This document shows, piece after piece, positions 6,141-32,262 of a DNA stretch of 64,000 nt. Under the pieces are notes generated by a model. That model had not been told where the DNA came from. It saw only the letters and a program-made list of their open reading frames with translations, and did not search any database. The DNA is from Planctomycetota bacterium. Its GTDB lineage: Bacteria; Planctomycetota; MHYJ01; JACQXL01; JACQZI01. The stretch is taken from contig JACQZI010000017.1 of the NCBI GenBank assembly GCA_016207825.1, positions 15,478-79,477 on the forward strand, written 5' to 3'. Position 1 is the stretch's first letter; each line of letters opens with the position of its first letter. The position numbers and the translations under genes were made by a program.

Positions 6141-6345
6141 CTCCACTCCTCCCTATGGACGGTTACTCCCTGCCGTATGAAGGGTCTATCCATACCGTAT
6201 AAACCATCCATCCCCGCCCAATAGAGGGTTACTCCATGCCGTACGAAACACTGCTCCCCGCCCTGCGGAATAACCATCCCCACCATACAGACCGCCCCTC
6301 CCTACCGTAGAAATACCCCATAGGGAGGGTGGGGATGGGGGGTAG
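6141..6345. repeat. 22-bp tandem repeat array (about 9 units; inverted copy of the array at 31962-32262)
   Basis: Periodic ggttactccctgccgtatgaag / ggtctatccataccgtataaac units, i.e. the reverse complement of ccgtacggtatgga. The terminal gtagggaggggcggtc matches the boundary of array 2. Confidence 0.8.
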
Positions 6346-6829
6346 TGGTCAGAGAGGTGGAAAATCGCCCCAATTTCTTATAAAACAAGGAGATACAACC
6401 CGGTGACTTCATAACATTCTTGTAAATATGGAGTTAGGCAGTCCGACGCATAAATTCACCATAAAAAGCGTTGTGGTTTTGCCATAAGAAGGGTGAAGGA
6501 AGACGGCGAACCACTAAGGATTCACCGCATGGAAATCGTAAAAATCTTCAAGGAAAAATAATTTTTCCATATAACCACCCCCCATACTTTCTAATTTGAT
6601 TATAGAGGGAGAGATAGTGAGGAAGGCTAAAAGGCTATGAGGCTAAGAGTAAGAAAATATGATAAATTTTAGGGGATTTATAAGATTTTATGTCACATTT
6701 AGCCTTTTTTGTCAATAGACTATGCAAGGGGATATGAAAATATGAAAAATTTTACCAAGAAAATGATTTTTCCTGTCAAAAGGGTGGGGGGTCAAACGCC
6801 TTATAGATAGAGGGGGAAATAAGAATATC

Positions 6830-6916
6830 ATGAATTTTACAGGAATTCCGATTTTTGGATGTCACATTCTGGGTTTTTCCGGGTTAGGTTATGGAAAGAG
6901 AAAGAAAGAAATATGA
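6830..6916 (+). CDS. short upstream ORF (28 aa, MNFTGIPIFGCHILGF...) whose stop overlaps the start of the following peptide gene
   Basis: ATG 6830 sits inside a conserved GGAATTCC-core element. The TGA at 6914-6916 overlaps ATG 6913-6915 (ATGA). I cannot tell whether it is translated. Confidence 0.3.
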   Translation: MNFTGIPIFGCHILGFSGLGYGKRKKEI

Positions 6917-7092
6917 AAAACGGATTAAATAAAGAATCAGTCAGATGGCCGTATCAGCAAAACGGAGGTGTCTGTGATAGCGTTGCGCGTCAGGTGTCAT
7001 GTGTTTGGCGCCAAGCACAGGATTCAGGACGTATGACGCCACGGGACGTTTTGCCGGCCAACTGGCGCTACATTTCGATTGGAGGTGAATAA
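6913..7092 (+). CDS. small Cys-rich peptide with PYQQNGG motif (copy 1 of duplicated cassette)
   Basis: MKNGLNKESVRWPYQQNGGVCDSVARQVSCVWRQ... is ~60% identical to the ORF at 63200. The start is chosen by alignment with the paralog. Confidence 0.55.
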   Translation: MKNGLNKESVRWPYQQNGGVCDSVARQVSCVWRQAQDSGRMTPRDVLPANWRYISIGGE

Positions 7093-7093
7093 A

Positions 7094-7888
7094 ATGAGTA
7101 CAATTAAAAGTCACGCGATGCTGATGATCGGCTGGCCACTGGATACGCCGGCGGATATGGGCGAAAAGTGGCTGGAAGGCATGAAAGCCAATGCGCTTCG
7201 TATCTACCAGAACATTTTAGCCAGAATTCCGGACAGCGGCAAGTTCCAGGAAAGGTTATCCGGTCCATCAAGCACGGGTTACGCGGGTTATGTGAATCCC
7301 GGTTTCGTTTCCAGAAGCGGAGACGAAAGTGGCGATATCCTGAACGGCCAGGTGGCAAACCTGCGGGATTCCTACGAGAAGTTCGTCCGGGGACTTGAAC
7401 ACGCCTTTGAAACCGTGGACGGGGTCGCTGCCAAGCGGTTCAAAGAGAAGGTGGAAAAGGCCAAGGAAAACTTCTTGGCGGGAATGGCCCGGCGCACGCT
7501 CATCTTCGGCGGAACAAGGGTAACGGGACGCGGCGCGGCGGCAATCGCCCCGCACTGGCTCGTGAATGACCTTCGGGTTATGGATTGGCTGAGAGCTGAC
7601 GACAAGGTGCTGGAAGGCGGACCCTTCAAGGTCTGCAAGACTTCCGACCGGTCGGCGTTCAAGGCGGCCCTGACCGAACGGCTCATCCAGGCGGGAATCC
7701 GGATTATCAAATCCGGGCTCTCCCATCCGGTTATCGACAAGGAGAACGACCAGACAAACGCGCTGGTGCAGAAGTTCATCGACCCTTCGCTGGGTCTTGA
7801 ATCTTTTGCCACCGGAGGATTATCCAGGCTTGATTTTATCAAGCAGGGTAACCGTTTGTTCCTGGAAATCCAGGTTTCACAAGTGTAG
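7094..7888 (+). CDS. conserved hypothetical protein, partner of the Cys-rich peptide (copy 1)
   Basis: GGAGG RBS then ATG 7094, 2 nt after the peptide stop. It shares ~35% identity over the central region (VDGVAAKRFK...GRGAAAIAPHW) with the ORF starting at 63385. Confidence 0.6.
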   Translation: MSTIKSHAMLMIGWPLDTPADMGEKWLEGMKANALRIYQNILARIPDSGKFQERLSGPSSTGYAGYVNPGFVSRSGDESGDILNGQVANLRDSYEKFVRGLEHAFETVDGVAAKRFKEKVEKAKENFLAGMARRTLIFGGTRVTGRGAAAIAPHWLVNDLRVMDWLRADDKVLEGGPFKVCKTSDRSAFKAALTERLIQAGIRIIKSGLSHPVIDKENDQTNALVQKFIDPSLGLESFATGGLSRLDFIKQGNRLFLEIQVSQV

Positions 7889-7960
7889 CCATCCCGACAC
7901 TTCGGTCGGGACGTCGCTACGCTCCGGGTGAGCCAGGTCTAAATCCGAATCGGTAAAGAA

Positions 7961-7998
7961 CAGGGGTGTTGGCAAGCCAACACCCCTGATTCTTTTCT
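7961..7998 (+). terminator. rho-independent terminator
   Basis: A 12-bp perfect stem aggggtgttggc/gccaacacccct with a 3-nt loop, followed by gattcttttctc. Confidence 0.6.
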
Positions 7999-8089
7999 CG
8001 GGCTAATTCTTTTTTATTGCCTTCCGCTTTATTAAATGGTTTATTATATTTTAATATATATTCATTTAATCAGTAAAGGACTTACTATT

Positions 8090-9091
8090 ATGAAGAATAA
8101 AAAGACTTCCATCTCCAGGCGTGATTTCCTGAAGAACGCGCTCATTATCGGCGGGGCGGGCTTGATGGCGCCTTCGCTTTTCCCCATTCTTTCCCATGGA
8201 GAGGATGATAAGAAGAAAAAAGAGGATGAGAAAGAAGTTCCGATAGAGAAAATCTTGGCGATCTGCTCAACCGAATCCGATAAGACTAACCCCGGCGTAA
8301 TGGTAAAAGAAGCCTTGGCGCTTTTGGGCGGGATGAAGAAATTCGTCAAGAAAGGCGATGTCGTCCTGGTTAAGCCTAATATCGCCTGGGAAAGGAAACC
8401 GGAATTCGCCGCCACGACCAATCCGAAAGTGGTCGCCGCCGTTATCGAAGAAGCGCTGGCCGCCGGCGCCAAGAAGGTCAAAGTCTTTGACCGGACCTGC
8501 AACGATGCCCGGAGATGCTACAAAATCACGGAGATAGAAGAAGTTGCCAAGAAGGCAGGCGCGGAAGTATTTATCATAGAAAAAGACGCCAGCTTTTACC
8601 AGGAGGTTAAAATACCCAAAGGCAAGATATTAAAATCATGCGACGTGGTAAAAGAGGTTCTGGAAAGCAATGTTTTTATCAACGTGCCGATAGCCAAGCA
8701 CCACGGCATTTCGCGCTTAACGCTGGGGATAAAGAACCTGATGGGCGTGGTCGGCGGCAACCGCGGAGAACTGCATAAGGAAATCGGGACGAAACTGACG
8801 GATATACTTTCCGTAACAAAGCCGCACCTTAATATTATGGACGCCTTTAACGTCCTGGTGGCGCACGGGCCGATAGGAGGGGATTTAAAAGACGTGCGTT
8901 TCTGCGGAAAGATTATCGCCGGAGTGGATATCGTGGCGGTAGATTCCTACACCGCAGGCTTAAAGCCTTTCAGCGAAGGCTCCAAAAAAGAGCTTACTTG
9001 GGAAGATATCCCATACATAAAAGAAGCCGCTGAAAGAGGCCTGGGCGAAGCGGATATTACTAAACTGAAAATCCTTGAGAAAAAGGTTTAA
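8090..9091 (+). CDS. DUF362-domain protein with twin-arginine (Tat) signal
   Basis: SRRDFLKNALIIGGAG is a Tat motif. ATG 8090 has an AAAGGA RBS. DUF362 genes are typically paired with Fe-S proteins. Confidence 0.6.
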   Translation: MKNKKTSISRRDFLKNALIIGGAGLMAPSLFPILSHGEDDKKKKEDEKEVPIEKILAICSTESDKTNPGVMVKEALALLGGMKKFVKKGDVVLVKPNIAWERKPEFAATTNPKVVAAVIEEALAAGAKKVKVFDRTCNDARRCYKITEIEEVAKKAGAEVFIIEKDASFYQEVKIPKGKILKSCDVVKEVLESNVFINVPIAKHHGISRLTLGIKNLMGVVGGNRGELHKEIGTKLTDILSVTKPHLNIMDAFNVLVAHGPIGGDLKDVRFCGKIIAGVDIVAVDSYTAGLKPFSEGSKKELTWEDIPYIKEAAERGLGEADITKLKILEKKV

Positions 9092-9124
9092 TAAGCTGTT
9101 AAATAGCTGTCTTTCGAGCATTTC

Positions 9125-10582
9125 ATGATAATACTACGCCGTATCAGCCAGTTTATTTTCTTCAGCCTCTTTATTTATCTCATTTTCCGGACGGTCAGCC
9201 CGCTTGCCTCGTGGATACCGGTTAACCTATTCTTTACGAGCGACCCATTGGTAGCAATCGGAGCCGGAATAGCCGGAAGGGCTTTGGTAATCAAGTTTAT
9301 CGCGGCATTGGTTGTAATCATTATCACCGTTCTTTTAGGCCGGGTCTTTTGCGGATGGATATGCCCATTGGGCGCGACGATTGACTGGTTTGACAAAGTA
9401 TTCCTGTGGTGGCGCAAGAAGCGGATTGTTATGTGGCTGGGCTGGCGGAAGGTAAAATACGCGATACTCGTTATCTTATTAACGGGCGCGGTTTTCGGGG
9501 TGAATGCCATCGGCTGGCTCGACCCGATTTCGATTGCCTTTAAAGGATACGGGCTTTTCATATATTCGGCACTGGACTGGGCAGGAACCAAAGTAGGCCT
9601 GGACAGAACCACCGTTTCAAGCCTGATTGATATTGGCATTTTTGACCGCAATGAGGTGTTATTCAAATACTCAGCGGTATTCGCGATTACCCTGGCAGTT
9701 ATCTTATTATTAAGCATGCTTGAGAGACGCTTCTGGTGCAGGAACCTTTGCCCTTTGGGGGCATTGCTTGGATTGCTTTCCAAATGGCGGCTGGTGCGCA
9801 CGCATACGGGAGAGGATTGCAACGAGTGCAAGCTGTGCGTCCGCACCTGCAAGATGGGGGCGCGGAGTAAGGAATTAGAGGCGCTGGATGAAGAGTGCAT
9901 ACATTGTTACACCTGCGTTAACGGATGCCCGAAGGACCAATTGTTTATAAAGAAGGCGGCTAAAGTAAAAACGGTTTCTATCCTGCCTTCAAGAAGAGGA
10001 TTTTTGATAAGCGGGATGCTGGGGATATTATCGTTCCCGCTTCTTAAATACAGCCTTTTAAAGAAGAAGGAAGAAAATCCTGTATTACCGATACTGAGGC
10101 CGCCCGGAGCGAATCCGGATGAGGAAAAATTCCTCGTCAAATGCGTCCGTTGTGGAGAGTGCATGAAGGTTTGCCCTTATAACGCAATACAACCGTTGAT
10201 GTTCGAAGGCGGTATTTACGGGATGTTTTCCCCGGTCATTATTCCGATTATAGGCTACTGCGGTTATGAATGTAACTTATGCGGACAAGCCTGCCCGACC
10301 GGCGCTATTAAAAACATGCCGTTAGCTGAAAAGAAGAAATGGAAAATCGGCACGGCAAAAACATATGAGGATATCTGTATAAACTGCCTGGTTTGCGAGG
10401 AATATTGCCCGGTCCCGGATAAAGCAATTAAGAATATAGAAAAGGACGGGCTTCAGTATCCCTGGGTAATAGATGAAATGTGCATCGGATGCGGGACATG
10501 CGAGAATGTCTGCCCGGCGTCGCCCCAAAAGGCGATAAGGGTGTTTAGAGACGCCAATCCTCCATCCAATCCCGCAAAATAG
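9125..10582 (+). CDS. polyferredoxin-like integral membrane 4Fe-4S protein (NapH/MauN-like)
   Basis: Has an N-terminal TM segment and FCGWICPLG, plus multiple CxxCxxCxxxCP clusters. Confidence 0.65.
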   Translation: MIILRRISQFIFFSLFIYLIFRTVSPLASWIPVNLFFTSDPLVAIGAGIAGRALVIKFIAALVVIIITVLLGRVFCGWICPLGATIDWFDKVFLWWRKKRIVMWLGWRKVKYAILVILLTGAVFGVNAIGWLDPISIAFKGYGLFIYSALDWAGTKVGLDRTTVSSLIDIGIFDRNEVLFKYSAVFAITLAVILLLSMLERRFWCRNLCPLGALLGLLSKWRLVRTHTGEDCNECKLCVRTCKMGARSKELEALDEECIHCYTCVNGCPKDQLFIKKAAKVKTVSILPSRRGFLISGMLGILSFPLLKYSLLKKKEENPVLPILRPPGANPDEEKFLVKCVRCGECMKVCPYNAIQPLMFEGGIYGMFSPVIIPIIGYCGYECNLCGQACPTGAIKNMPLAEKKKWKIGTAKTYEDICINCLVCEEYCPVPDKAIKNIEKDGLQYPWVIDEMCIGCGTCENVCPASPQKAIRVFRDANPPSNPAK

Positions 10583-10717
10583 CGGCGTTTTACAGATGGG
10601 GTCGGGGCAACCAGAAATTATCGCTTCAGTTTTCATCCCCGGTCAACCGAAATAATATAGTAGTTCCGCGCTATCGCGCACACGGATTACAACTTACTTT
10701 ATAAAATACTGCTTATT

Positions 10718-11308
10718 ATGAAACAGGTATTTGAGAAGATTGTTTCCGAATATTTTAGCCGCCACAGGATATTATTCGGCATTGCCGGGGTGATTGTCAT
10801 CATATTAACCTTTTCCTTTATCATGGGAAGCGGACATCCCGTCGCTAAGGGCGAAGAGGTAAATATAGACCGGCAAGCCATGAAGAACTCCAGCGACTCG
10901 ATAGAATTAATAAACACCAGAAACCGTGTAAACACCGAGGGAAACGCCAAAATGATTACCGTAGAAAAGGCGTTGATTTGCGTTAACGTGGATGATATGT
11001 CTCCGGTCGGCGCGATACGCCAGATTCCGCCTGATATCGAACGCATTTTCTGCTGGGCAAGGGTATTGGAAGCGAAGGGCGAAAAAATCAGGTATCTGTG
11101 GTATTTCAACGGCACGGTGGTAACCAGCAACTGGCAGGTAATCCTAAGCGACCGTTTCATAACATGGTGCCCATACCGATTCAACACCAATGCAGGCGGT
11201 AAGGGGCACGTTGATATAGTCAACAGCCGCGGTAAAGTCTTAAAGCGTATTCAATTTGAGGTAATGGAAAAACAGGAGCCCACACGGGTGCGCCTGAAAC
11301 GTTCGTAA
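10718..11308 (+). CDS. hypothetical membrane-anchored protein
   Basis: N-terminal TM helix. I recognise no family. Confidence 0.4.
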   Translation: MKQVFEKIVSEYFSRHRILFGIAGVIVIILTFSFIMGSGHPVAKGEEVNIDRQAMKNSSDSIELINTRNRVNTEGNAKMITVEKALICVNVDDMSPVGAIRQIPPDIERIFCWARVLEAKGEKIRYLWYFNGTVVTSNWQVILSDRFITWCPYRFNTNAGGKGHVDIVNSRGKVLKRIQFEVMEKQEPTRVRLKRS

Positions 11309-11332
11309 GAAACTGCTATTTCCAATCCTGAA

Positions 11333-11677
11333 CTACTTCTTAGCAGCCGGCTTGTCTTTTGCGCCCGCTTTGGGAGCGGCGGCAGCCGGAGCAGCGCCTT
11401 TGGCCGGGACGGCACCTGCTTTAGCCGGAGCACCTGCGGCAGCAGGAGCGGCACCCGCAACAGGGACGGCGCCCGGAGCAGCGGCGGCAGCTTCTTCCTT
11501 CTTAGCAGCTTTCTTGGCTTTGGGCTTGATATTCTTTACTTTCATCAAACCGAAAACCGAATTGGCTTCTTTCCACTTGCCTTCTTTGCCTAAATAAGCC
11601 AGGCGTTCGGCCCGTGAAAGCACATTACGATGCCTTTTAAGTTTGCCTGATAATACCAGACTTTTGTGAATCGTCAT
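11333..11677 (-). CDS. small basic protein with Ala/Pro/Lys-rich histone H1-like tail
   Basis: A ~50-aa basic N-domain followed by a low-complexity AAPAKAG tail. This tail creates the GC-rich simple repeat at about 11380-11510. Confidence 0.45.
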   Translation of the reverse strand: MTIHKSLVLSGKLKRHRNVLSRAERLAYLGKEGKWKEANSVFGLMKVKNIKPKAKKAAKKEEAAAAAPGAVPVAGAAPAAAGAPAKAGAVPAKGAAPAAAAPKAGAKDKPAAKK

Positions 11678-11679
11678 TT

Positions 11680-12381
11680 TTACCTCCTAATCTGAACAAC
11701 TTCGCTTATGGAAAATACTCTGATATCGCGATTAGCGTTTTTTATGGATTTGAAAGCTTCTTCGGCCTCTGACCTTGAACCATACGGCCCTATATACACA
11801 CTGATTTGGGAAGAATCCCGGTGGTTCCGGTCAACCGAGGAATTTGTAATCTGCTTATTTTGTAAGAGCTTTAACATACGGTCGGCCGAATATTTGCCGA
11901 CGGTAGTATTATCGTAAGAAACCACTTCTATCATCCATTTTTGCTGAGTGGCGGCAGGAGCCGGAGCCGGGGCAGGTGCTGCCCTGACTGTATCCGCCGT
12001 AGACGTTTGCCCGTCTGTAACGGCAGGCTCAACCGTACCGGAAGAAGATGTGTCTTTTGAAGGGCTGCTTTCACGCCCCATAATAAACACAATCGCCAGT
12101 ATGATGATACCGATTAAAATGCCGAAAAAGACCGCATTATACGAAAGCTTAAACTCTTTATTTTGCGGGGATCCAGGCTTTTTTACAAAGGAACTTTTAA
12201 GCTTAGGATAAACCCTTTCCGGAATTGGGGTAAGCGTTACAAGAGGCACAACATTGGAATCTGAGCTTTTCGCCGTGCTGTCTTCTTTAACAGCATCTTC
12301 TTCTTTAAGCGAAGGTTTCCTGATATCAACGTTTCCCCTTTTTAAGACCTCGTATAATTCAGGAGCGCTCCTTTTTTTCAT
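11680..12381 (-). CDS. SPOR-domain cell-division/peptidoglycan-binding protein
   Basis: Single TM segment, a Pro/Ala-rich linker, and a C-terminal SPOR-like domain (WMIEVVSYDN...). Confidence 0.55.
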   Translation of the reverse strand: MKKRSAPELYEVLKRGNVDIRKPSLKEEDAVKEDSTAKSSDSNVVPLVTLTPIPERVYPKLKSSFVKKPGSPQNKEFKLSYNAVFFGILIGIIILAIVFIMGRESSPSKDTSSSGTVEPAVTDGQTSTADTVRAAPAPAPAPAATQQKWMIEVVSYDNTTVGKYSADRMLKLLQNKQITNSSVDRNHRDSSQISVYIGPYGSRSEAEEAFKSIKNANRDIRVFSISEVVQIRR

Positions 12382-12449
12382 AAGCCGTCATTCCTTTATT
12401 TTTGGACGGTAGACAATATAGCACAAAACTTGTTGAGTGTCAAAGTTTT

Positions 12450-13793: not shown

Positions 13794-13919
13794 GTTATGC
13801 TCGGTGTTATTAATAAGATGTCAAATGCGAGCCGGATGGGATGGAATTATCGGCAATTCCGGAAACACCTTGCCCATACCGGGTTCTCAAGTAAAGGAAT
13901 GACCGTTATATATATAAAC

Positions 13920-14690
13920 CTATTTTCTTATTTTTTCGTCCGTCGCTTCAGGAGCTTCTTTCGATTCAACGGGCATAAAACCTATGACAACCCGCCTGTT
14001 TTCGGCTTTTTTCTCACTCTTGGGTTGGTGTTCGCCGAAGCTGCATAGGAACATCTTCGCCGGATCAATGCCTTGTTCCTGGAAATACAAAAGCACCTTT
14101 AATGCCCTATAAGCACCTAACTCAAAATTAGAACGGGTTTTCCACTCCCCTGCGGATTTATCAATCGGGTCTGTATCCGTATGGCCGTCTACGCGAATGA
14201 TATAATCAGGATGCTGTTTGAATACTTCGGCAACACGGCCAAGTATTTCCTTGCCGCTTTCTTTAAGTGTAACCTTACCAGAATCAAAAAGGACTTCCCC
14301 TTGAATTTCAATTCCACCCGGGGTTATTTCAATGCCTTCGATTCCTCTTAGTTTGCTGCCAATTCCTTCAAGTAATCTTGCCCGGGCCATCTGTTCAGCT
14401 TTCCATTTTTTTGTTAAAGCAGCGTTTTCGCCTTTAGCGATCCCTAGCTCCTGGCTAAGGTCGTAATTCTTCTTTTCAATATCTTCCTTAGCATCTTTCA
14501 AGGCATTGCGCTGGTTATTTAAAGCTTCTATCTCGGCGCGATATTTATTTTCCATCTTCTTGTATTTTCCCAAGGAAACGCATCCGCCGGCAATCCAGAC
14601 CATTCCTACAATCAACATAATAACAACCACCATCCTCACTGATTTTGCCATACCCTGGCCTCCTTTCTTATATTTTAATATCTTATTCAC
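13920..14690 (-). CDS. OmpA/MotB-family peptidoglycan-associated protein with coiled coil
   Basis: N-terminal TM segment, coiled coil, and a C-terminal OmpA-like domain (IRVDGHTDTDPI, NRRVVIG). Confidence 0.7.
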   Translation of the reverse strand: MNKILKYKKGGQGMAKSVRMVVVIMLIVGMVWIAGGCVSLGKYKKMENKYRAEIEALNNQRNALKDAKEDIEKKNYDLSQELGIAKGENAALTKKWKAEQMARARLLEGIGSKLRGIEGIEITPGGIEIQGEVLFDSGKVTLKESGKEILGRVAEVFKQHPDYIIRVDGHTDTDPIDKSAGEWKTRSNFELGAYRALKVLLYFQEQGIDPAKMFLCSFGEHQPKSEKKAENRRVVIGFMPVESKEAPEATDEKIRK

Positions 14691-15610
14691 GGTTTATAAT
14701 TCTTCATATCAATGGGCGTCCCGGACTCATCTTTAATTCCAAAAAGATCAATCACTATTTGGCCTAAGTCCCGGGTAACCCCAACGGGCAAATCCGTCCT
14801 GCCGGATGATATGCTTATTATATCGCCCAAAAACGACCCGACAAACATCAAAAAAACGAAAGAGAGCACTAATATTATTACAAAAGCCGGATGAACCTTT
14901 GGCCTTACTGTCGGCGCATCAACCGCAGGGGCGTAACGCCTGGAAGGCCGGAGCGCGGCGGCTGAAGGAGGTGGAGGCGGCGCTTTAAACTCGACCGGTT
15001 TTTCCGCAACGGTTTCGGCAAATTCCTCCGCAATCGTGGCTTGTTCGTCCTCCACTGTTTCTTCGATAAACGTTCCTTCAGTATCCTTTAAGGGAGCGGT
15101 AACGTTACTGCTTTCATCGCCTTCAAGGCTGATTTTTTCGTCTTCAAGCGATGGAATTGTTATATCAGTATCACCGAAAGGAAGCTCTTCTGTAATACTG
15201 GAAGTATCTTCTTCCAGAAATGTTTCTTCCTTACCGCTGCCAGCTTTAAGAAGGTCGTCAGGAGGCAAAATCACGGTAGGCTCAGTAATTTTACCCTTTT
15301 TTATGCTGTCAATATCTTCTTTTTTGAAGTGGACCCTATCGGCTTCTTTGAACGCCTGGATTTCACCTTCGGAAACCATCCGGTTAAGCTCATCCTCGCT
15401 CAACTTCAGCTCGTCAAGGACATCATCAAAAGAATAAAATTTACCTTTGCGGAAACTTTCAATATCTTCCTTACGGAATTTAATCTGGTCATCCTGGCGA
15501 AATGCCCGTAAATCGCCTTCTGAAACTATTTTCTTCAGGTCTTCCTCGTTTAATTTCAGCTCTTTAAGGACGTCGTCAAACGAATAAAACTCTTCTTTTT
15601 CCGGAGTCAT
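14687..15610 (-). CDS. hypothetical membrane protein with two tandem excisionase-type HTH-like repeats
   Basis: Two ~45-aa repeats (FYSFDDVL.ELKL.E.EL...VSEG...AF) resemble HTH_17/excisionase-type helices. Has a Pro-rich region and a C-terminal TM segment. Confidence 0.4.
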   Translation of the reverse strand: MTPEKEEFYSFDDVLKELKLNEEDLKKIVSEGDLRAFRQDDQIKFRKEDIESFRKGKFYSFDDVLDELKLSEDELNRMVSEGEIQAFKEADRVHFKKEDIDSIKKGKITEPTVILPPDDLLKAGSGKEETFLEEDTSSITEELPFGDTDITIPSLEDEKISLEGDESSNVTAPLKDTEGTFIEETVEDEQATIAEEFAETVAEKPVEFKAPPPPPSAAALRPSRRYAPAVDAPTVRPKVHPAFVIILVLSFVFLMFVGSFLGDIISISSGRTDLPVGVTRDLGQIVIDLFGIKDESGTPIDMKNYKP

Positions 15611-23690: not shown

Positions 23691-23691
23691 C

Positions 23692-24336: not shown

Positions 24337-24340
24337 ATGC

Positions 24341-25405: not shown

Positions 25406-25418
25406 AAAATTTATATTT

Positions 25419-26192: not shown

Positions 26193-26325
26193 AATTTTCT
26201 TTATTATAAATTAATACGGCGTGCGGTCAAGAAAATATACATACATAACTATAAAGATAATACGCCTCCCCTCTTAAAACAACAAATTCCCCCGCTTTTC
26301 AGGCTTTTCAATCCCTTTATTATCC

Positions 26326-26353
26326 TTGACAAACTTATACGGGCTGATATATT
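26326..26353 (+). promoter_or_regulatory. putative sigma-70 promoter of argS (TTGACA-16-TATATT)
   Basis: -35 TTGACA at 26326-26331 and -10 TATATT at 26348-26353, ~20 nt before the start codon. Confidence 0.4.
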
Positions 26354-26372
26354 TAGTTCTCAAATAGCTTTT

Positions 26373-28097
26373 ATGAATATACTCAAGAATGAAATAACCA
26401 ACCTGCTTAAAGGGCATGACACCCTGTCAGGAATAAATATCGACTCTGTCCTGGAAAGGCCGCCGGACCGGGCTAAAGGCGATTATGCTTTAGCCTGCTT
26501 TTCACTGGCTAAATCGCTGAAACAAGTTCCTAATAAACTCGCCTCGGATATTGCCTTGCAATTAAAACCTTCGGGCCTCATTGCCTCCATCCAAGCAGAG
26601 GGCGGTTATATAAATTTCAGGGCGGACCCGGTAAAGCTGACGCCCCTTGTCATAAAACAAATTCTTACGGATAAAGAAAAATACGGGACATCCTCTATAG
26701 GCGAAGGAAAAACCATCGTCATAGATTACTCCTCGCCAAATATCGCCAAGCCCATGGGTATCGGCCACTTGCGCTCAACGGTCATCGGCAACTCTCTCTA
26801 TAAAATATTCTCCGAGCTTGGGTATAAATGCATCGGCATAAATTACCTGGGCGACTGGGGCACACAGTTCGGAATGCTTATTGCGGATTACAAGGAAAAC
26901 AAAAACCTCTATTCCGAATTTAATTCCGCGTTCCTGTCCGAACGCTATGTCGCTTTTAACGAACGGGCTAAAACCCAGCCGGAGCTCCTGGAAAAAGCGC
27001 GTGAGGAATTCAAGAAACTGGAATCAATGAATTCGGAAAACATGGAAATCTGGAATAAATTCCGCGCGCTCAGCATTAAGGAATTCCAGCGCATTTATAA
27101 ATTAATAGGGGTGAGCTTCGACGATTACTCCGGCGAATCAGCCGTAACCAATATCAACGAAGTGATTGCCCTGATAGAAAACAAGGGTTTGTGCGAAATC
27201 AGCGAAGGCGCTTTAATCGTCAACATGGAAAAACAAAACTTACAGCCGTGCCTCTTAAAGAAAAGCGACGGCGCCACCCTTTATGCCGCGCGAGACATCG
27301 CCGCCGCCATCGGCCGCCACGATAAATATAAATTCCATAAATTAATCTACGTGGTCGGCGCGGACCAGAAACTCCACTTCCGCCAGTTCTTTAAAGTCCT
27401 GGAACTGATGGGCTACGAATGGGCAAAGGAATGTGTCCACGTTGAGTTCGGGCTGGTCCGTTTATCCGGTGAAAAAATGTCCACCCGCCAGGGAAAGACC
27501 ATCATGCTGGAAGAAGTCCTGAACGAGGCGATTGAAAAATCCAAACAGGTGATTAAATCAAGGCCGCGGGAATTATCCGATAAAATCGCTTCCGCCGACC
27601 CCGATGAAATCGCCAAAGCGGTCGGCATCGGAGCGATTATCTTTAATGACCTTAAAAACAGACGCACGCGGGATGTGGATTTCAACTGGGAACACATTCT
27701 CTCATTTGACGGCGAAACCGGGCCATACCTGCAATATACCCATACAAGACTGGCAAGCCTCCTGGAAAAAGCCAAACACACCGGTTATAATACGGAAAGC
27801 GTTTCGCCGGCAAAAGCGGAACTCTTGACCGCGGATGAAGAAATATTACTTGCTAAACTCCTGAATGAATTCCCGGAAACCATAGAAAAAGCGGCGAAAA
27901 ATTTCGAGCCGTCTATTCTCAGTAATTATCTTTTGGAACTCTCCTCGGTTTTCAACCGCTTTTACCGTTTCCACAAAGTGATTAACGATTTGGATAAAGA
28001 TTTGAGTAATGCCAGAATATCTCTGGTCCGTTCCTTAAAATATGTTCTGGCAAAAGGGTTAAGTCTTCTCGGAATTAATCCTATCGAAAAAATGTAA
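26373..28097 (+). CDS. argS: arginine--tRNA ligase
   Basis: Class I HIGH motif (PMGIGHLRS) and a length and architecture typical of ArgS. Confidence 0.9.
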   Translation: MNILKNEITNLLKGHDTLSGINIDSVLERPPDRAKGDYALACFSLAKSLKQVPNKLASDIALQLKPSGLIASIQAEGGYINFRADPVKLTPLVIKQILTDKEKYGTSSIGEGKTIVIDYSSPNIAKPMGIGHLRSTVIGNSLYKIFSELGYKCIGINYLGDWGTQFGMLIADYKENKNLYSEFNSAFLSERYVAFNERAKTQPELLEKAREEFKKLESMNSENMEIWNKFRALSIKEFQRIYKLIGVSFDDYSGESAVTNINEVIALIENKGLCEISEGALIVNMEKQNLQPCLLKKSDGATLYAARDIAAAIGRHDKYKFHKLIYVVGADQKLHFRQFFKVLELMGYEWAKECVHVEFGLVRLSGEKMSTRQGKTIMLEEVLNEAIEKSKQVIKSRPRELSDKIASADPDEIAKAVGIGAIIFNDLKNRRTRDVDFNWEHILSFDGETGPYLQYTHTRLASLLEKAKHTGYNTESVSPAKAELLTADEEILLAKLLNEFPETIEKAAKNFEPSILSNYLLELSSVFNRFYRFHKVINDLDKDLSNARISLVRSLKYVLAKGLSLLGINPIEKM

Positions 28098-28124
28098 CTG
28101 CATCAAGAAAAGGAGTTCGACTAA

Positions 28125-29993
28125 ATGAGGAAATTATTATTAACCCTGCTGGGAACGGGATTGTCAATTATCTATTTGGGTTGCGGGTCAACGGCAAGCG
28201 AAGTAAAAAAACCGGTAACGGCAAAAGAACCGCCGCCGGCAACCAAGCAAGCCCAACCGTCGGAGCTCGTTAAAGAAAAACTCTCCTTGATAGAAGAACT
28301 CGGCTCTGACGACTGGGAAACCAGGGAAAAAGCACAGAAAGAACTGGAAAAAATGGGGGAAAAAGCGGAAGGCCAGCTTAAAGAAGCGGCCAAAAGCGCA
28401 AACCCAGAAATAAGGAGCCGGGCCACCCGTATCCTGAAACTTATTGAAACTCAAAAGCGGTGCAAACTTTCCGATGGCTTCTTAAGAGAATTCCCAAATA
28501 TTTATTATAATATCCTGGGGCTTTCCCCGGCGGGCAAATATGAACTCTTGGAAGAAGTTGTTTCCAAAGATAAAAACGGGCAGTTGAAATTCATCGGGAA
28601 AATCTCGCCCGCCGATATCGCCGTATTGACTGGCGAAATCTTGCGCGAGGACGGCAAAGGGCTAACCGATGACCAGAAAATAAAACTTATCCACACAAAC
28701 TTATCAAGCGGTTTCGGGCAGATAAACCAATCCGGCATACATTTGATAAAACTCCTGAAGGATCAGAACACGGAAATAAAACGCCTGGCCATCGAAACAG
28801 CAGGCTACATGGGTGTAAAAGAAGCAATTCCGGAAATCCGGGCTTTCCTAAAAGATCCTGCCGGGATACTGCGCGGCTATGCCGCCAAGACGCTCGGAAC
28901 GCTGGGCGATAAAGAAAGCATGAAAGACATCGCCGCGCTCTTAAACGACTCAGAAGCACTCCCTTACGAAGTAATCAACGCGCTGGTCATGCTCGGCGCT
29001 AAAGAATATGTAAATGAAATAAGACCTTTATTAAAAAGTGGTGATTCCTCTGCGCGGGTGGCCGCTGCCGTGGCCATGGGAAATTTTGGAGACAAGGAAT
29101 CGATTCCTCAGCTTATGGAACTGCTTGGTGATTCGTCGGATTCCAGCGTGCCTGCTATGGCGGCCGAGGCACTCGGCAGGCTCGGCCACAAGGAAGCCAT
29201 CCCGAAAATAATACCTCTCCTGGGCGCGGAGACATCTGATTGCCGAGAATATTCACTTAGGGCGCTGACCACCCTCAGAGCGTCCGATGCCGTCCCGGAA
29301 ATAATGAAAAGACTGAGTGATGAAGACCCCTATATCACCCAGCTTTCCATCCAATCCCTTAAAATTCTCGGTTCTAAAGAGCTTATCCCGAAAATGATTC
29401 AAGAGCTACAAAGCAACAGCGAGCCTTCCCATCAGGAACCCTACCTAAAAATCGACCTCTTAAACACGTCCGCCCACATGATGGCAAAGGAACTCTTTCC
29501 GGAAATAGCCAGTCTCTTGAAAGATTCAGACAAAACAACCGTCGCCGTAGCGGCTTTTTCGCTTATCAACGCAAATATCGGGATGACCGGCGAGGAAGTC
29601 CCGGAAATAACGGAACTTCTGAAAAAAGAAAATGTCTCCAGCGCCCAGCTTAACGAAATCTCCGAGCCGGTTTATGGATTCTTCCCGGAATACACCGCGG
29701 AAAAAACAGCCGGGTTACTATCGGATAAAAGAAAGGCTGTCCGGGCATCGGCCCTCTTAACATTGGGCAACTTAGTCCTAAAAGAATCCACGCCGGAAAT
29801 AATAAAAATGCTCGGTGACAAAGAACCACCCGTCCGCGCCACGGCAATTTCCGCCTTATGCAACCTCGAAGCGGTTAACGCCTCGGACTATATCAAAAAG
29901 CTTTATTCGGATAGCGACCCGGCAATCCGAGCCATGGCAGAACTCGCCATCCAATACTTAAAAACAATCGAGGAACCGCCGCCACAGGAATAA
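28125..29993 (+). CDS. HEAT-repeat (PBS lyase-like) lipoprotein
   Basis: Lipobox (LGCGS) and many ~30-aa repeats with AA.ALG..GDKEAIP.L..LL.D. Confidence 0.7.
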   Translation: MRKLLLTLLGTGLSIIYLGCGSTASEVKKPVTAKEPPPATKQAQPSELVKEKLSLIEELGSDDWETREKAQKELEKMGEKAEGQLKEAAKSANPEIRSRATRILKLIETQKRCKLSDGFLREFPNIYYNILGLSPAGKYELLEEVVSKDKNGQLKFIGKISPADIAVLTGEILREDGKGLTDDQKIKLIHTNLSSGFGQINQSGIHLIKLLKDQNTEIKRLAIETAGYMGVKEAIPEIRAFLKDPAGILRGYAAKTLGTLGDKESMKDIAALLNDSEALPYEVINALVMLGAKEYVNEIRPLLKSGDSSARVAAAVAMGNFGDKESIPQLMELLGDSSDSSVPAMAAEALGRLGHKEAIPKIIPLLGAETSDCREYSLRALTTLRASDAVPEIMKRLSDEDPYITQLSIQSLKILGSKELIPKMIQELQSNSEPSHQEPYLKIDLLNTSAHMMAKELFPEIASLLKDSDKTTVAVAAFSLINANIGMTGEEVPEITELLKKENVSSAQLNEISEPVYGFFPEYTAEKTAGLLSDKRKAVRASALLTLGNLVLKESTPEIIKMLGDKEPPVRATAISALCNLEAVNASDYIKKLYSDSDPAIRAMAELAIQYLKTIEEPPPQE

Positions 29994-30097
29994 AACGAAA
30001 ATAATATAAAACCCTGAAGTTTTCTTGACCTTAAAAAGGTATTCTGTTATAAACCCTTTTATCAAACAGTGTTAACTATTTAACAAGGAGATAAAAA

Positions 30098-31159
30098 ATG
30101 GCGTCATTTGAAGACCTGCTGGTCCAATTGGTAAAAAGAGGCGGTTCTGATTTGCATATCACGAAAGATTCTCCACCGCGCATCAGGGTGGACGGCAAGT
30201 TGGCTCCGCTTGAAGGCGACAAACTGACTGCCGCAGACTCCCAAAAATTAATCTACGGTCTTCTGGACCCATCCCAGGTTGCCCGTTTTGAAAAGAATAA
30301 AGAGCTCGATTTCTCTTTCGGTATCGAAGGCTTAGGCAGGTTCAGGACGAACGTTTTCATGCAGCGCGGCGCGGTCGGCGCAGTCCTGCGTATCATCCCG
30401 ACCAAAATAAAAACATTCGAGGATTTGGGGCTTTCCCGGCAGGTCTGCGAATCGCTGTGCAACCTGCCCAAAGGCTTGATTCTGGTCACCGGCGCGACCG
30501 GCAGCGGCAAATCCACCACCCTCGCCGCGATGATTGATTTCATCAACACCACGGATTACGGGCATATAATCACCGTGGAAGACCCGATAGAATTCGTCCA
30601 CTCGAACAAAAACTGCCTGGTCAACCAGCGCGAAGTCGGCTCGGATACCAACGAATTCAAAAACGCCTTGAGAACGGTCTTAAGGCAGGACCCGGACGTG
30701 GTGCTAATCGGAGAAATGCGCGATACGGAAACGACCGAAGCAGCATTGACCATTTCCGAAACCGGCCACCTGACATTCGGGACACTGCATACCAGCGATT
30801 GCGTCCAGACCATGAACCGTATCATAGATATCTTCCCGGCTTACCAACAATCGCAGATACGGACTCAATTATCCTTTACATTATCAGCCGTATTCTGCCA
30901 GCAGTTGTTACCGCGTGCAACCGGCAAAGGGCGCGTGCTGGCGGCGGAAATCATGCTTGCCAACTCTGCCATCCGCTCGCTCATCCGGGATAATAAGGTA
31001 CACCAAATTTACTCGGTCATCCAGACCGCCGGGAAGTCCGGAATGAAGACGATGAACCAGTCGTTATACGAACTCTATAAATCAGGCACGATAAAATATG
31101 ATACGGCATTGGAATACTCAAGCGACCCGGACGATCTGAAACGCCTGATGCAGAAATAA
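30098..31159 (+). CDS. pilT: twitching motility ATPase PilT
   Basis: Walker A GATGSGKST and the PilT-specific length and motifs. Confidence 0.85.
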   Translation: MASFEDLLVQLVKRGGSDLHITKDSPPRIRVDGKLAPLEGDKLTAADSQKLIYGLLDPSQVARFEKNKELDFSFGIEGLGRFRTNVFMQRGAVGAVLRIIPTKIKTFEDLGLSRQVCESLCNLPKGLILVTGATGSGKSTTLAAMIDFINTTDYGHIITVEDPIEFVHSNKNCLVNQREVGSDTNEFKNALRTVLRQDPDVVLIGEMRDTETTEAALTISETGHLTFGTLHTSDCVQTMNRIIDIFPAYQQSQIRTQLSFTLSAVFCQQLLPRATGKGRVLAAEIMLANSAIRSLIRDNKVHQIYSVIQTAGKSGMKTMNQSLYELYKSGTIKYDTALEYSSDPDDLKRLMQK

Positions 31160-31179
31160 GACAATAAAAAATTAACCCA

Positions 31180-31212
31180 AAACCCCGTTCTCTCGCGGAG
31201 CGGGGTTTTTTC
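31180..31212 (+). terminator. rho-independent (possibly bidirectional) terminator
   Basis: aaaaccccgttctctcgcggagcggggttttttt: a GC stem flanked by an A-run and a T-run, between convergent pilT and the HTH gene. Confidence 0.6.
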
Positions 31213-31306
31213 ATATCTTTAATGAACAACCATACTTATTCCACGCAGATAATATCTTCCAAGCGCCACATCTCCGCCCTCTCCATACAAAACACCAAGG
31301 GAGGTG

Positions 31307-31870
31307 TCAGACGACCTCTGTTCCCGGCATACTTAAACGATGAATCTCGTAACTAGTCCAATGTTTGTATTCTTCAGAATTTGATTGTACCTTCTCGAAT
31401 TCCGCGGGCGCAACCACCACCAACAATTCCCAATGAACCGGCTCATAGGGCGAGGCGGTATTCAAACGCACCTTCTTGTATTCCACTTCCACAAATTCCT
31501 CTTTCCAGTTGCGGCCTGAACCGGAATTGGCCTTCCATTCGACATAAAGGGCTGTCAAGCCCAATTTGCCGGAAAAAGCCTCGTCAAATATATAATACTT
31601 GTGCCCGCTCATATCAGATTTCGGCCTGGATTCTTGCAGGTATTTCTTCAGGACCTCGGCGCGGAAAAAATAAGGCCTTGCCCCGGTATGCCCGAAGGTG
31701 TAATATTTGTAAGTGACATAACGCTCCACATCCGCACGGTGGAACCGCCAGGCGCGGCCTGCTTTGAATGCCGGTAATTTCCCTGCCTTGGCTAAGCGGT
31801 AAACTGTGTGGTTATTTACCCGCAGGTATTTTGCCACTTCGTCAAGGGTCAATATTTCAGGAAGTTCCAT
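31307..31870 (-). CDS. excisionase-type HTH DNA-binding protein fused to an uncharacterised C-terminal domain
   Basis: N-terminus LTLDEVAKYLRVNNHTVYRLAKAGKLPAFKAGRAWRF (HTH_17/excisionase-like). Its start codon is ~90 bp from the 22-bp tandem array. Confidence 0.6.
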   Translation of the reverse strand: MELPEILTLDEVAKYLRVNNHTVYRLAKAGKLPAFKAGRAWRFHRADVERYVTYKYYTFGHTGARPYFFRAEVLKKYLQESRPKSDMSGHKYYIFDEAFSGKLGLTALYVEWKANSGSGRNWKEEFVEVEYKKVRLNTASPYEPVHWELLVVVAPAEFEKVQSNSEEYKHWTSYEIHRLSMPGTEVV

Positions 31871-31961
31871 AATAATATTATACCAAACCGGACACTATTT
31901 AGCAATATTTTACTCTATTTAGCAATATTGTACATTAACCCCTACCCTACCTACCCACCCT

Positions 31962-32262
31962 CTGTACGGTAGGGAAGGGCGTTCTGTACGGTGGGGAGAG
32001 GTACTCCGTACGGTATGGAAGCATACTCTGTACGGTCAGGAGCGGTATTCCGTACGGTATGGAGACACGCTCTATACGGTCAGGAGTGGTATTCCGTACG
32101 GTATGGAGGCACACTCTGTACGGTCGGGAGTGGTATTCCGTACGGTATGGAGGCATACTCTGTACGGTCGGTATGAGTATTCTGTACGGTCAGGAGAATG
32201 CACCTGATGGGTATGGAGAAGTATTCGCTTGGGTATCCGGGCACCTTCGCTATGGAATACTG
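31962..32262. repeat. 22-bp (44-bp higher-order) tandem repeat array, about 13 units
   Basis: Alternating ccgtacggtatggaggcatact and ctgtacggtcaggagtggtatt units that decay at the distal end. The gene-proximal boundary is cctacccaccct. Confidence 0.9.

What the first reader, a model, noticed from the sequence alone, without database searches (positions are those of the whole stretch)
6141..32262. Two inverted copies of a 22-bp tandem-repeat array, 25.6 kb apart, each upstream of a gene in the same relative orientation
Array 2 (31962-32262) consists of alternating ccgtacggtatggaggcatact and ctgtacggtcaggagtggtatt units. Array 1 (6141-6345) is its reverse complement, including the non-repeat boundary. 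Both carry the motif gtacggtagggaRgggcgKtc at the gene-proximal end. Relative to the downstream gene, both arrays have the same polarity. Array 2 lies upstream of the minus-strand HTH gene at 31307-31870, and array 1 lies upstream of the plus-strand peptide cassette. The 22-bp period is not a multiple of 3, so the arrays are non-coding. A 22-bp period is about two helical turns, as seen for iterons and for regulator-binding arrays. Large inverted repeats could also mediate inversion of the intervening 25 kb.
Basis: seen in the sequence. Interest (0 to 1): 0.7.

Follow-up and report, generated by a model that had tools for sequence, protein, structure and literature searches.

The report
Phased 22-bp repeat arrays upstream of genes
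An uncultured Planctomycete carries several non-coding arrays of 8-14 (up to about 17 in relatives) strictly 22-bp-spaced repeats just upstream of particular genes, and one such array lies in front of the same small DNA-binding regulator gene in all eight related bacteria examined, so they look like a new kind of protein-docking control element rather than junk DNA or an inversion switch.

Summary
Array 2 (31961-32224) is a clean 22/44-nt tandem array. Array 1 (6141-6316) is a diverged, inverted relative: about 70% identical, longest exact match 11 nt.

The main result is comparative. The 187-aa gene next to array 2 encodes a BldC/Xis-type winged-helix protein with an unknown C-terminal domain. 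All 8 distinct orthologous loci carry a 22-nt array of about 10 to more than 15 units directly upstream. Each ends in a conserved G-rich cap (GGGTAGGGGTYAATGT) before the promoter. Unit sequences differ between species. None of 76 loci with only a generic HTH_17 match (349 kb) has such an array.

Across 14 arrays, 157 of 162 units sit exactly in register, even where units are only about 50% identical. Spacing, about two helical turns, is therefore under selection.

Array 1 has better-preserved counterparts upstream of paralogous and orthologous copies of the small-ORF + 264-aa cassette. Array 3 heads a polysaccharide-synthesis gene cluster.

Best reading (about 0.45): these are phased platforms for cooperative protein binding, most likely by the HTH protein, that control the adjacent promoters. 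Inversion of the 25-kb segment is not supported, and membership of the iteron, centromere or ncRNA families is not established. I rate it a new variant of a known kind.

The parts
6141..6316 (+). Array 1. Eight degenerate 22-nt units with core CTCC..CCGTA on the + strand. Its polarity points towards the + strand cassette.
   Evidence: Lag-22 autocorrelation is 0.56. All 8 units are in register. It is an inverted relative of array 2.
6317..6400 (+). G-rich cap of array 1 plus a conserved post-array segment. The cap contains the G-quadruplex-type motif GGGAGGGTGGGGATGGGGGG at 6323-6342. The segment reads GTAGTGGTC...AAAAT...TTATAAAACAAGGAGATAC.
   Evidence: The G4 motif is one of only two in the window. 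The segment aligns with the post-array segments of L009 and L092.
6913..7888 (+). Cassette 1: a 59-aa Cys-containing small ORF (6913-7092) and a 264-aa protein of unknown fold (7094-7888). It is preceded by repeated boxes of about 38 nt at about 6653, 6733 and 6821.
   Evidence: (D4, D5, D11).
31307..31870 (-). 187-aa protein (MBI4834599.1): an N-terminal BldC/Xis-type winged HTH and a C-terminal domain of about 120 aa with no known relative.
31871..31938 (-). Promoter/operator region of the HTH gene: GTTAATGT, two copies of TATTGCTAAATAG spaced 20 nt apart, and TTGCTA-17-TATAAT ending 6 nt before the ATG (near-leaderless).
   Evidence: (period 20, 2 copies).
31939..31960 (-). G-rich terminal unit (cap) of array 2: GGGTGGGTAGGTAGGGTAGGGG on the gene's sense strand. 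It is conserved in all orthologous loci.
   Evidence: It is the second of only two G4 motifs in the window.
31961..32224 (-). Array 2. Twelve 22-nt units with a 44-nt higher-order repeat. On the gene strand the units read AR...CTCC..ACCGTACRG. Decaying units continue to about 32270.
   Evidence: (D2).
32265..32293 (+). Intrinsic-terminator-like hairpin with a T7 tail on the + strand, at the distal end of array 2.
   Evidence: I read similar hairpin-plus-T-run sequences by eye on the same relative strand in L003 and L006 (sequences shown).
32306..32437 (-). Array 2b. Six AT-richer 22-nt units; on the + strand the core is GTATAGATTA.
   Evidence: (D3).
60102..60125 (-). G6/C6 hairpin cap between array 3 and the methyltransferase gene. 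On the minus strand it reads AGGGGGGAGTAGCACCACCCCCCT.
60144..60407 (-). Array 3. Twelve 22-nt units (+ strand AAATGCGGAGRGACYCCATCTY) with a 66-nt higher-order repeat. It lies upstream of the minus-strand gene cluster that starts at 59928.
   Evidence: (D1).
59047..59928 (-). First gene (a class I methyltransferase) of a minus-strand polysaccharide-synthesis cluster of about 10 kb, headed by array 3.
63200..64000 (+). Cassette 2, a paralogue of cassette 1: a 62-aa small ORF (63200-63388) and the start of a gene like the 264-aa one (from 63385). It is preceded by the same box motifs at 62678, 62961 and 63069.
   Evidence: (D4 80% identical, D5).

Best explanation
The arrays are cis-acting, helically phased docking platforms for a DNA-binding protein that assembles cooperatively along one face of the DNA. 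Each unit is 22 bp, about two helical turns. Arrays hold 8-14 units in this genome and up to about 17 in relatives.

Each array sits just upstream of a promoter, with a fixed polarity: units, then a G-rich cap, then the promoter. The most likely binder is the 187-aa BldC/Xis-type winged-helix protein encoded next to array 2.

In this model the protein coats its own upstream array, which gives autoregulation or titration. In this genome it would also coat the sequence-related arrays upstream of the multi-copy small-ORF + 264-aa cassettes, namely array 1 and the array in L009. That would set those promoters on or off as a group.

SHOWN: the anatomy; strict phasing under selection; conserved gene-array synteny and polarity; the fold class of the N-terminal domain; the shared CCGTAC core of arrays 1, 2 and L009.

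INFERRED: that any protein binds; that it is this protein; and the direction of regulation.
For: 1. Conserved pairing. All 8 distinct orthologous loci (window, L003, L004, L006, L007, L013, L014, L015) have a 22-nt array directly upstream of the gene. The arrays end in GG..GGGTAGGGGTYAATGT, 55-130 nt before the ATG where no insertion intervenes; L004 carries an extra insertion of about 400 nt. None of the 76 loci with only a generic HTH_17 match (349 kb) has one, nor does a distant paralogue (L096).

2. Constrained spacing. All 14 arrays peak sharply at lag 22, with baseline values at lags 21 and 23 and undiminished values at 44 and 66. By a leave-one-out test, 157 of 162 units are exactly in register, although mean unit identity is only about 0.5 in seven arrays. 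Substitutions have accumulated but indels have not. I infer selection on helical phase.

4. Shared core and polarity. The unit core TACGGTNNGGAG is confined to arrays 1 and 2: 15 of 20 window matches, 2.2 expected by chance. The same CCGTA core and the same cap-plus-GTAGTGGTC segment occur upstream of cassette paralogues and orthologues in L009 and L092. By my reading of the unit sequences, 10 of 11 arrays whose orientation relative to a downstream gene I could assess share that polarity.

5. Precedent. Small HTH proteins that bind arrays of direct repeats upstream of their own gene and at other promoters are known, for example StbA/stbS (bioRxiv 10.1101/2022.04.29.490116).
Against: 1. No binding data exist.

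2. The predicted recognition helix (TVYRLAK[S/A]G) is almost invariant among orthologues, yet the array units differ completely between species. The window and L007 share the operator-like TTGCTAAATAG pair but not the array unit. Base-specific readout by a conserved helix is therefore hard to reconcile with the arrays. Specificity would have to lie in the variable residues 19-21, 27-29 and 39-40, in the unknown C-terminal domain, or in DNA shape.

3. Arrays within one genome differ in sequence. Arrays 2b and 3 differ from array 2, and L003 differs from L092, which come from the same sample.

4. There is no 11-nt sub-period, which a simple BldC-like head-to-tail chain would predict.

5. The C-terminal domain has no structural match, and the model is only moderately confident (pLDDT 70.8).

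6. L011 and L093 carry cassette homologues without an array.
Confidence: 0.45

Rival explanations
1. The arrays are phased protein-binding platforms, but the binder is another factor, such as a nucleoid-associated protein or a regulator encoded elsewhere. On this reading the HTH gene is only one of several array-controlled targets, and its own operator is the TTGCTAAATAG pair.
For: Spacing is constrained. Arrays lie upstream of unrelated genes: the HTH gene, the cassettes, a polysaccharide-synthesis cluster, and a 235-aa gene in L095. The HTH recognition helix is conserved while array units diverge. The only DNA elements conserved across species are the G-rich cap and the promoter region.
Against: The only gene whose linkage to an array is conserved in 8 of 8 loci is the HTH gene itself. 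No other candidate DNA-binding gene is syntenic with the arrays.
Confidence: 0.2
2. Each array is the body of a non-coding RNA transcribed away from the capped end, on the strand opposite the HTH gene. The RNA would carry about 12 GGAG/GGA-containing units and act as a sponge or scaffold for an RNA-binding protein, in the manner of CsrB/RsmZ.
For: An intrinsic-terminator-like hairpin with a T7 tail lies on the + strand exactly at the distal end of array 2. I read similar hairpin-plus-T-run sequences on the corresponding strand in L003 and L006 (sequence). The + strand of array 2 folds better than shuffles (z = -5.5), whereas the minus strand gives z = -1.7. Every unit of arrays 2 and 3 carries GGAG on the + strand.
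Against: Array 3 shows no excess structure on either strand (z = -0.1 and -0.6). There is no Rfam match even at E<=10. The strand carrying GGAG relative to the cap is not conserved between species. An RNA gives no reason for an exact 22-nt register in units only 50% identical. L007 and L004 have no clear distal terminator. No convincing outward promoter was found.
Confidence: 0.12
3. The arrays are neutral or selfish satellites generated by replication slippage and unequal crossing-over, perhaps seeded at the G-rich, quadruplex-prone cap. They are tolerated in intergenic DNA and have no function.
For: Unit sequences turn over quickly, and the 44- and 66-nt higher-order repeats indicate concerted evolution. 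Array 1 is decayed. Three assemblies show no copy-number difference, so nothing points to programmed variation. Dispersed non-coding satellites, though rare, are known in a few prokaryotes (PMC6749651).
Against: The array is retained at the same place, with the same polarity and period and at a comparable size (about 10 to more than 15 units), in 8 of 8 orthologous loci whose proteins are only 55-65% identical. There are no internal indels despite about 50% unit divergence. No such array occurs in 349 kb of control loci.
Confidence: 0.1
4. Array 2 plus the HTH gene is an iteron-type replication origin or a centromere-like partition site of an integrated or former mobile replicon.
Against: The flanks are housekeeping chromosomal genes: ArgRS, PilT, PilB, RF1. 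No Rep, ParA, integrase or relaxase was found among the ORFs scanned. No full-length relative of the protein occurs in 72,556 plasmids or 50,697 phages. Similar arrays occur at several chromosomal sites in front of ordinary genes. Known centromere arrays have a period of 10-12 bp rather than 22.
Confidence: 0.06
5. Arrays 1 and 2 are inverted repeats that mediate inversion of the 25.6-kb segment between them.
For: The two arrays are inverted relative to each other and significantly similar.
Against: Identity is about 70% and the longest exact match is 11 nt, far below what homologous recombination needs (the threshold is from own knowledge). No invertase or recombinase gene was found among the ORFs scanned. 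An independent 20.5-kb assembly spans array 2 colinearly with 1 mismatch. The orientation is explained by each array facing its own downstream gene.
Confidence: 0.02

Closest known systems
BldC of Streptomyces, and the related Xis-type architectural winged-helix proteins (lambda and Pukovnik Xis, RdfS)
   Same: The N-terminal domain has the same fold and is 34-41% identical. These proteins bind direct repeats as cooperative multimers and make few base-specific contacts. A BldC dimer occupies a 22-bp site (PMC5859096).
   Different: BldC and Xis are single-domain proteins of about 55-70 aa; this protein has an extra conserved C-terminal domain of about 120 aa and unknown fold. BldC sites have 2-4 repeats of about 9-11 bp. 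Here there are roughly 10 to more than 15 units upstream of the HTH gene (8-17 across all arrays), with a period of exactly 22 bp and no 11-bp sub-period. The NCBIfam BldC model scores 32.7 bits against a cut-off of 77.
Plasmid centromere-binding proteins with repeat arrays upstream of their own gene: StbA/stbS of R388, ParR/parC, TubR/tubC, pSK1 Par
   Same: A small HTH protein has an array of direct repeats upstream of its own autoregulated gene, further repeat sets at other promoters, and helical phasing that puts the sites on one face of the DNA.
   Different: Those systems are on plasmids, have a period of 11-12 bp, and serve segregation. Here the setting is chromosomal, the period is 22 bp, there is no partner NTPase, unit sequences differ between arrays, and no sequence relative occurs on plasmids.
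Iterons of theta-replicating plasmids (R6K, pPS10, P1, RK2)
   Same: Direct repeats phased at about 22 bp lie next to an autoregulated gene with a separate operator (unit sizes from own knowledge).
   Different: There is no Rep (WH1-WH2) protein, no plasmid context, and no AT-rich unwinding element or DnaA boxes were identified. There are 8-14 units per array here (up to about 17 in relatives) rather than 3-7, and several arrays in front of ordinary genes.
Dispersed non-coding satellites of prokaryotes (Leptospira interrogans, Methanocella conradii)
   Same: Families of non-coding tandem repeats occur at several chromosomal sites (PMC6749651).
   Different: Those were described without a conserved gene partner, fixed polarity, cap or conserved helical period.

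Membership tests
BldC family / Xis-type wHTH direct-repeat binders | MerR-like/Xis-like winged helix-turn-helix DNA-binding domain | tested here: met
   [not shown]
BldC family / Xis-type wHTH direct-repeat binders | Small single-domain protein that passes the family model (NCBIfam HTH_BldC) | tested here: not met
   The protein is 187 aa with a conserved extra C-terminal domain. HTH_BldC scores 32.7 bits against a cut-off of 77.
BldC family / Xis-type wHTH direct-repeat binders | Cooperative head-to-tail binding to direct repeats of about one helical turn each | tested here: inconclusive
   Direct repeats are present next to the gene, but the period is 22 nt with no 11-nt sub-period. Binding itself cannot be tested with these tools.
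Iteron-type plasmid replication origin | Tandem direct repeats phased at about 22 bp | tested here: met
Iteron-type plasmid replication origin | Adjacent Rep initiator (two winged-helix domains; Rep_3/RepA-type family) | tested here: not met
   [not shown]
Iteron-type plasmid replication origin | Plasmid or mobile-replicon context | tested here: not met
   The flanks are chromosomal housekeeping genes. No full-length homologue occurs in the plasmid or phage collections.
Plasmid centromere / centromere-binding protein module (ParR-parC, StbA-stbS, TubR-tubC, pSK1 Par) | Array of direct repeats upstream of the binding protein's own gene | tested here: met
Plasmid centromere / centromere-binding protein module (ParR-parC, StbA-stbS, TubR-tubC, pSK1 Par) | Repeat period of about one helical turn (10-12 bp), with a partner NTPase or a demonstrated role in plasmid stability | tested here: not met
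   The period is 22 nt. No ParA, ParM or TubZ gene lies next to the locus. The stability function cannot be tested here.
CsrB/RsmZ-type protein-sponge RNA | Match to a curated RNA family | tested here: not met
   There are no Rfam matches at gathering score or at E<=10 other than chance miRNA/snoRNA hits.
CsrB/RsmZ-type protein-sponge RNA | Repeated GGA motifs presented in hairpin loops, with an own promoter and a Rho-independent terminator | tested here: inconclusive
   Each unit carries GGAG, and a terminator-like site lies at 32265-32293 (+). Array 2 (+) folds with z = -5.5, but array 3 gives z about 0. No outward promoter was identified.
CRISPR array | Repeats separated by unique spacers of similar length | tested here: not met
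   The units are head-to-tail with no spacers.
Invertible DNA segment | Near-identical inverted repeats and an invertase or recombinase | tested here: not met
   The longest exact match is 11 nt. No recombinase was found among the ORFs scanned. An independent assembly is colinear.

The most novel reading that the evidence does not exclude
A previously undescribed class of chromosomal control elements in an uncultured Planctomycete clade. The elements are 'capped phased satellites': 8 to about 17 units of exactly 22 bp whose sequence turns over rapidly, closed by a G-quadruplex-prone cap. A dedicated BldC-like HTH protein with a novel C-terminal domain would coat them as a filament. Together they would form a heterochromatin-like switch that co-regulates the regulator itself, a multi-copy cassette of unknown function, and a surface-polysaccharide gene cluster. 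Array and protein specificity would co-evolve.
Probability: 0.3. Interest if true: 0.75.

Novelty: new variant of a known kind. Interest (0 to 1): 0.6.

Why it matters
If the arrays are filament platforms, bacteria outside the plasmid world use long, helically phased repeat arrays as promoter-upstream control elements, in which spacing rather than sequence is conserved. This differs from ordinary operators. It resembles centromere and iteron nucleoprotein complexes, but here applied to chromosomal gene regulation.

It would give a function to a conserved orphan protein family (BldC-type HTH plus an unknown C-terminal domain). It would also give a handle on a multi-copy cassette of unknown fold in Planctomycetes, a phylum with almost no characterised transcription factors.

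The pairing of rapidly evolving arrays with a conserved binder would be a compact system for studying co-evolution of a protein with satellite DNA.

Practically, such arrays break short-read assemblies. Two of the orthologous contigs (L013, L015) start inside an array.

Tried and rejected
- RNA families: no Rfam match over the whole window at gathering score, nor over the array regions at E<=10. No tRNA or tmRNA genes.
- RNA structure: only array 2 (+) folds better than shuffles. Array 3 does not on either strand. RNA structure is therefore rejected as a general property of the arrays.
- Intrinsic DNA curvature: a wedge model with parameters recalled from memory (so heuristic) shows the arrays no more curved than column-permuted periodic controls or random genomic windows.
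- 11-nt sub-period: absent.
- Coding potential: 22 is not a multiple of 3. The mechanical ORFs crossing the arrays (32059-32310, 59995-60246, 60155-60391, 60304-60597) change frame and are interrupted, and units in other species contain stop codons.
- Plasmid and phage relatives of the HTH protein: only HTH-domain-level matches.
- GTDB genome scan with the orthologue alignment: returned only the locus already known.
- A distant paralogue from the same sample as L003 (L096): no array.
- Literature: no paper held both '22-bp tandem repeat' and Planctomycetes. A broader search and the prokaryotic-satellite survey do not describe these arrays.
- Correlating variable HTH residues with array units: with 8 loci I saw no clear pattern.

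Full report
SOURCE AND SETTING

The window is chromosomal DNA of an uncultured Planctomycete MAG (locus tags HY811_; the HTH protein is MBI4834599.1). It carries housekeeping genes:
- RF1 and an RF-1-domain protein;
- arginyl-tRNA synthetase, PilT, PilB and a type IV pilus cluster;
- a sigma-54 activator;
- a polysaccharide-synthesis cluster.

No tRNA gene or Rfam family is present.

CHECK OF THE OBSERVATION

Array 2 is as described. TRF gives period 22 and a 44-nt higher-order period (87% matches) at 31983-32197. In register, 12 units run from 31961 to 32224 and then decay to about 32270.

Array 1 is not called by TRF, but it has a genuine 22-nt periodicity. Autocorrelation is 0.56 at lag 22, 0.52 at 44 and 0.58 at 66, against 0.27-0.30 at neighbouring lags. 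It has 8 in-register units.

Array 1 is an inverted, diverged relative of array 2, not a reverse-complement copy:
- 78 nt at 71% identity;
- local alignment score 59 against 18.5 +/- 2.4 for shuffles;
- longest exact match 11 nt.

The two gene-proximal units are the most similar part. The unit core TACGGTNNGGAG is essentially confined to the two arrays: 15 of 20 matches, against 2.2 expected.

A scan of all periods from 8 to 69 nt finds exactly three regions of the window with 22-nt periodicity: array 1; array 2 with a neighbouring array 2b (32306-32437); and array 3 (60144-60407, 12 units, 66-nt higher order).

THE NEIGHBOURING GENE

All of these matches cover only the first 50 or so residues. 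The conserved C-terminal domain of about 120 aa has no match. BldC binds direct repeats as cooperative head-to-tail multimers, and a dimer occupies a 22-bp site (PMC5859096).

COMPARATIVE EVIDENCE (THE MAIN RESULT)

The protein has only 11 close clusters in 5.8 billion proteins. I recovered upstream DNA for seven other distinct orthologous loci: L003, L004 (identical to L005 and L012), L006 (identical to L008), L007, L013, L014 and L015.

Every one of them carries a 22-nt-period array directly upstream of the gene, in the same orientation. The arrays hold about 10 to more than 15 units; two are cut by contig ends.

The unit sequences are unrelated, or only distantly related, between species. 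Examples are GCGAAGTTCCAAGACTATATGG in L007 (96% perfect), GGAGGGCTACTCCTTACTATTT in L003, and AGGGGGTATCCCAAGATTCCAG in L004.

All the arrays stay in register with, and end in, a conserved G-rich terminal unit followed by GTYAATGT. The consensus is GGGGTAGGGTAGGGGTCAATGT. It ends 55-130 nt before the start codon, except in L004, which has an insertion of about 400 nt.

As a control, the same metagenome scan returned 76 loci (349 kb) that match only the generic HTH domain. None has a region of 22-nt periodicity. A distant full-length paralogue (L096) has none either.

SPACING IS CONSTRAINED

In all 14 arrays examined, autocorrelation peaks sharply at lag 22 (0.49-0.95). It is at baseline at lags 21 and 23, and it holds at lags 44 and 66.

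In a leave-one-out position-weight test over offsets -10 to +10, 157 of 162 units score best at offset 0. The five exceptions are terminal units.

Seven of the arrays have a mean pairwise unit identity of only 0.48-0.55. Many substitutions have therefore accumulated, but no net internal indel has.

I infer purifying selection on the 22-bp spacing, about two helical turns. That points to a DNA-level, face-of-the-helix function. Neither a neutral satellite nor an RNA explains such a constraint.

There is no 11-nt sub-period. Predicted intrinsic curvature is not elevated, although this is a heuristic model.

THE OTHER ARRAYS

Array 1 belongs to a repeated module. The 264-aa protein downstream of it (7094-7888) is preceded by a 59-aa Cys-containing ORF (6913-7092). 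It has at least four or five paralogues in this MAG and 52 homologues overall.

The locus of paralogue P0021 from the same population (L009) has a better-preserved array of 14 units (ATCCCGACCGTACAAAGGGCGT). That array is followed by a G-rich cap and by the same GTAGTGGTC...TTATAAAACAAGGAGATAC segment that follows array 1.

An orthologous locus from another organism (L092) has about 17 units (CATATCATAGCCGTATGGAACG), a cap and the same segment.

The CCGTA core is thus shared by cassette arrays across species.

L095 has a 10-unit array 2.6 kb from a cassette homologue. L011 and L093 have no array.

Array 3 faces the minus strand. Its units are followed by a G6/C6 hairpin cap and then, 175 nt on, by the first gene of a polysaccharide-synthesis cluster of about 10 kb: methyltransferases, a flippase, an ATP-grasp enzyme, a HAD hydrolase and glycosyltransferases.

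By my reading of the unit sequences, 10 of 11 arrays whose orientation relative to a downstream gene I could assess share the polarity units, then G-rich cap, then gene. L095 is the exception.

THE CAP

The only two canonical G-quadruplex motifs (four runs of three or more G, with loops of 1-7 nt) in the whole window, on either strand, are the caps of array 1 (6323-6342, +) and array 2 (31939-31960, -). Each lies on the sense strand of its downstream gene. The caps in L015 and L092 also qualify. I have no functional test for this.

MECHANISM

The best-supported reading is a phased docking platform for cooperative protein binding upstream of promoters, with the adjacent BldC/Xis-type protein as the prime candidate binder.

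The main weakness is specificity. The recognition helix is almost invariant among orthologues, while the units differ. The window and L007 share the operator-like TTGCTAAATAG pair in the promoter but not the array unit. Specificity would have to reside in variable residues flanking the helix and in the wing, in the unknown C-terminal domain, or in shape readout. BldC itself makes few base contacts. Alternatively, another factor binds the arrays.

I put 0.45 on the HTH-filament model and 0.2 on 'phased platform, different binder'.

RIVALS

ncRNA. A terminator-like hairpin with a T7 tail lies on the + strand exactly at the distal end of array 2, and I read similar sequences in L003 and L006. Array 2 (+) folds with z = -5.5. 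Against this, array 3 shows no excess structure, Rfam is silent, and an RNA does not explain the exact register.

Neutral satellite. This is contradicted by the 8-of-8 retention and by the absence of indels.

Iteron origin or plasmid centromere. The architecture is similar. However, there is no Rep or Par partner, the context is chromosomal, and no plasmid or phage relative exists.

Inversion. The longest exact match is 11 nt and no recombinase was found among the ORFs scanned. An independent assembly (L001, 20,564 nt, 1 mismatch) crosses array 2 in the same configuration. A second contig (L002) is identical, so three assemblies also show no copy-number variation.

NOVELTY AND SCORE

I found no description of these arrays or of this protein family's C-terminal domain. 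The nearest known systems are BldC/Xis filaments and plasmid modules in which a centromere-binding protein or Rep sits next to its repeat array.

This case differs in five ways:
- its chromosomal setting;
- its 22-bp period;
- its array length;
- its G-rich cap;
- its rapid unit turnover with conserved spacing.

I rate it a new variant of a known kind, with interest 0.6. The anatomy and the comparative evidence are solid; the mechanism is inferred.

Noticed in passing
window 32306-32437: Array 2b: a second, AT-richer 22-nt array (unit GTATAGATTA...). It lies beyond the + strand terminator-like hairpin that ends array 2, and it is in the same register family as array 2.
   Followed up: partly
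window 60144-60407 (cap at 60102-60125): Array 3: twelve 22-nt units with a 66-nt higher-order repeat. It lies between the 3' end of an OLD-family nuclease gene and the first gene of a polysaccharide-synthesis cluster.
   Followed up: partly
[not shown]
   Followed up: partly
window 6653-6690, 6733-6754, 6821-6858, 62678-62715, 62961-62998, 63069-63106: Repeated boxes of about 38 nt (GAAAATATGAnAAATTTTAnnGGAATTCCnAGATTTTA), often followed by AAAAGGGTGGGGGGTCAA. They lie upstream of both cassettes and also in L009. They could be promoter or operator elements, or the remains of a small mobile element.
   Followed up: no
window 6323-6342 (+) and 31939-31960 (-): These are the only two canonical G-quadruplex motifs in 64 kb. 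They are exactly the gene-proximal caps of arrays 1 and 2.
   Followed up: partly
window 32487-33289 (-) and 33475-33687 (-): Three consecutive short ORFs (86, 95 and 79 aa), of which two (86 and 95 aa) give sub-threshold matches to successive parts of a Cas4-like PD-(D/E)XK nuclease. This looks like a frameshifted pseudogene. A truncated PemK/MazF toxin lies beside it.
   Followed up: no
window 60565-62427 (-): A 620-aa OLD-family ATPase-TOPRIM protein. Its PADLOC matches are AriA, Old, GajA and PtuA. It stands alone, with no partner gene on either side, between array 3 and cassette 2.
   Followed up: partly
window 11384-11489: An 18-nt (6-codon) tandem repeat inside the minus-strand ORF 11333-11677, i.e. 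a coding low-complexity repeat.
   Followed up: no
window 14687-15610 (-): A 307-aa protein with HTH_17 matches, upstream of an OmpA-like gene and a sigma-54 activator. No array is associated with it.
   Followed up: no
plasmid hits H1-H3 (Klebsiella plasmids): The HTH protein aligns over residues 3-118 (29% identity) with an HTH protein encoded just upstream of hsp20 on Klebsiella plasmids. The alignment therefore includes part of the C-terminal domain, which may have remote relatives there.
   Followed up: no
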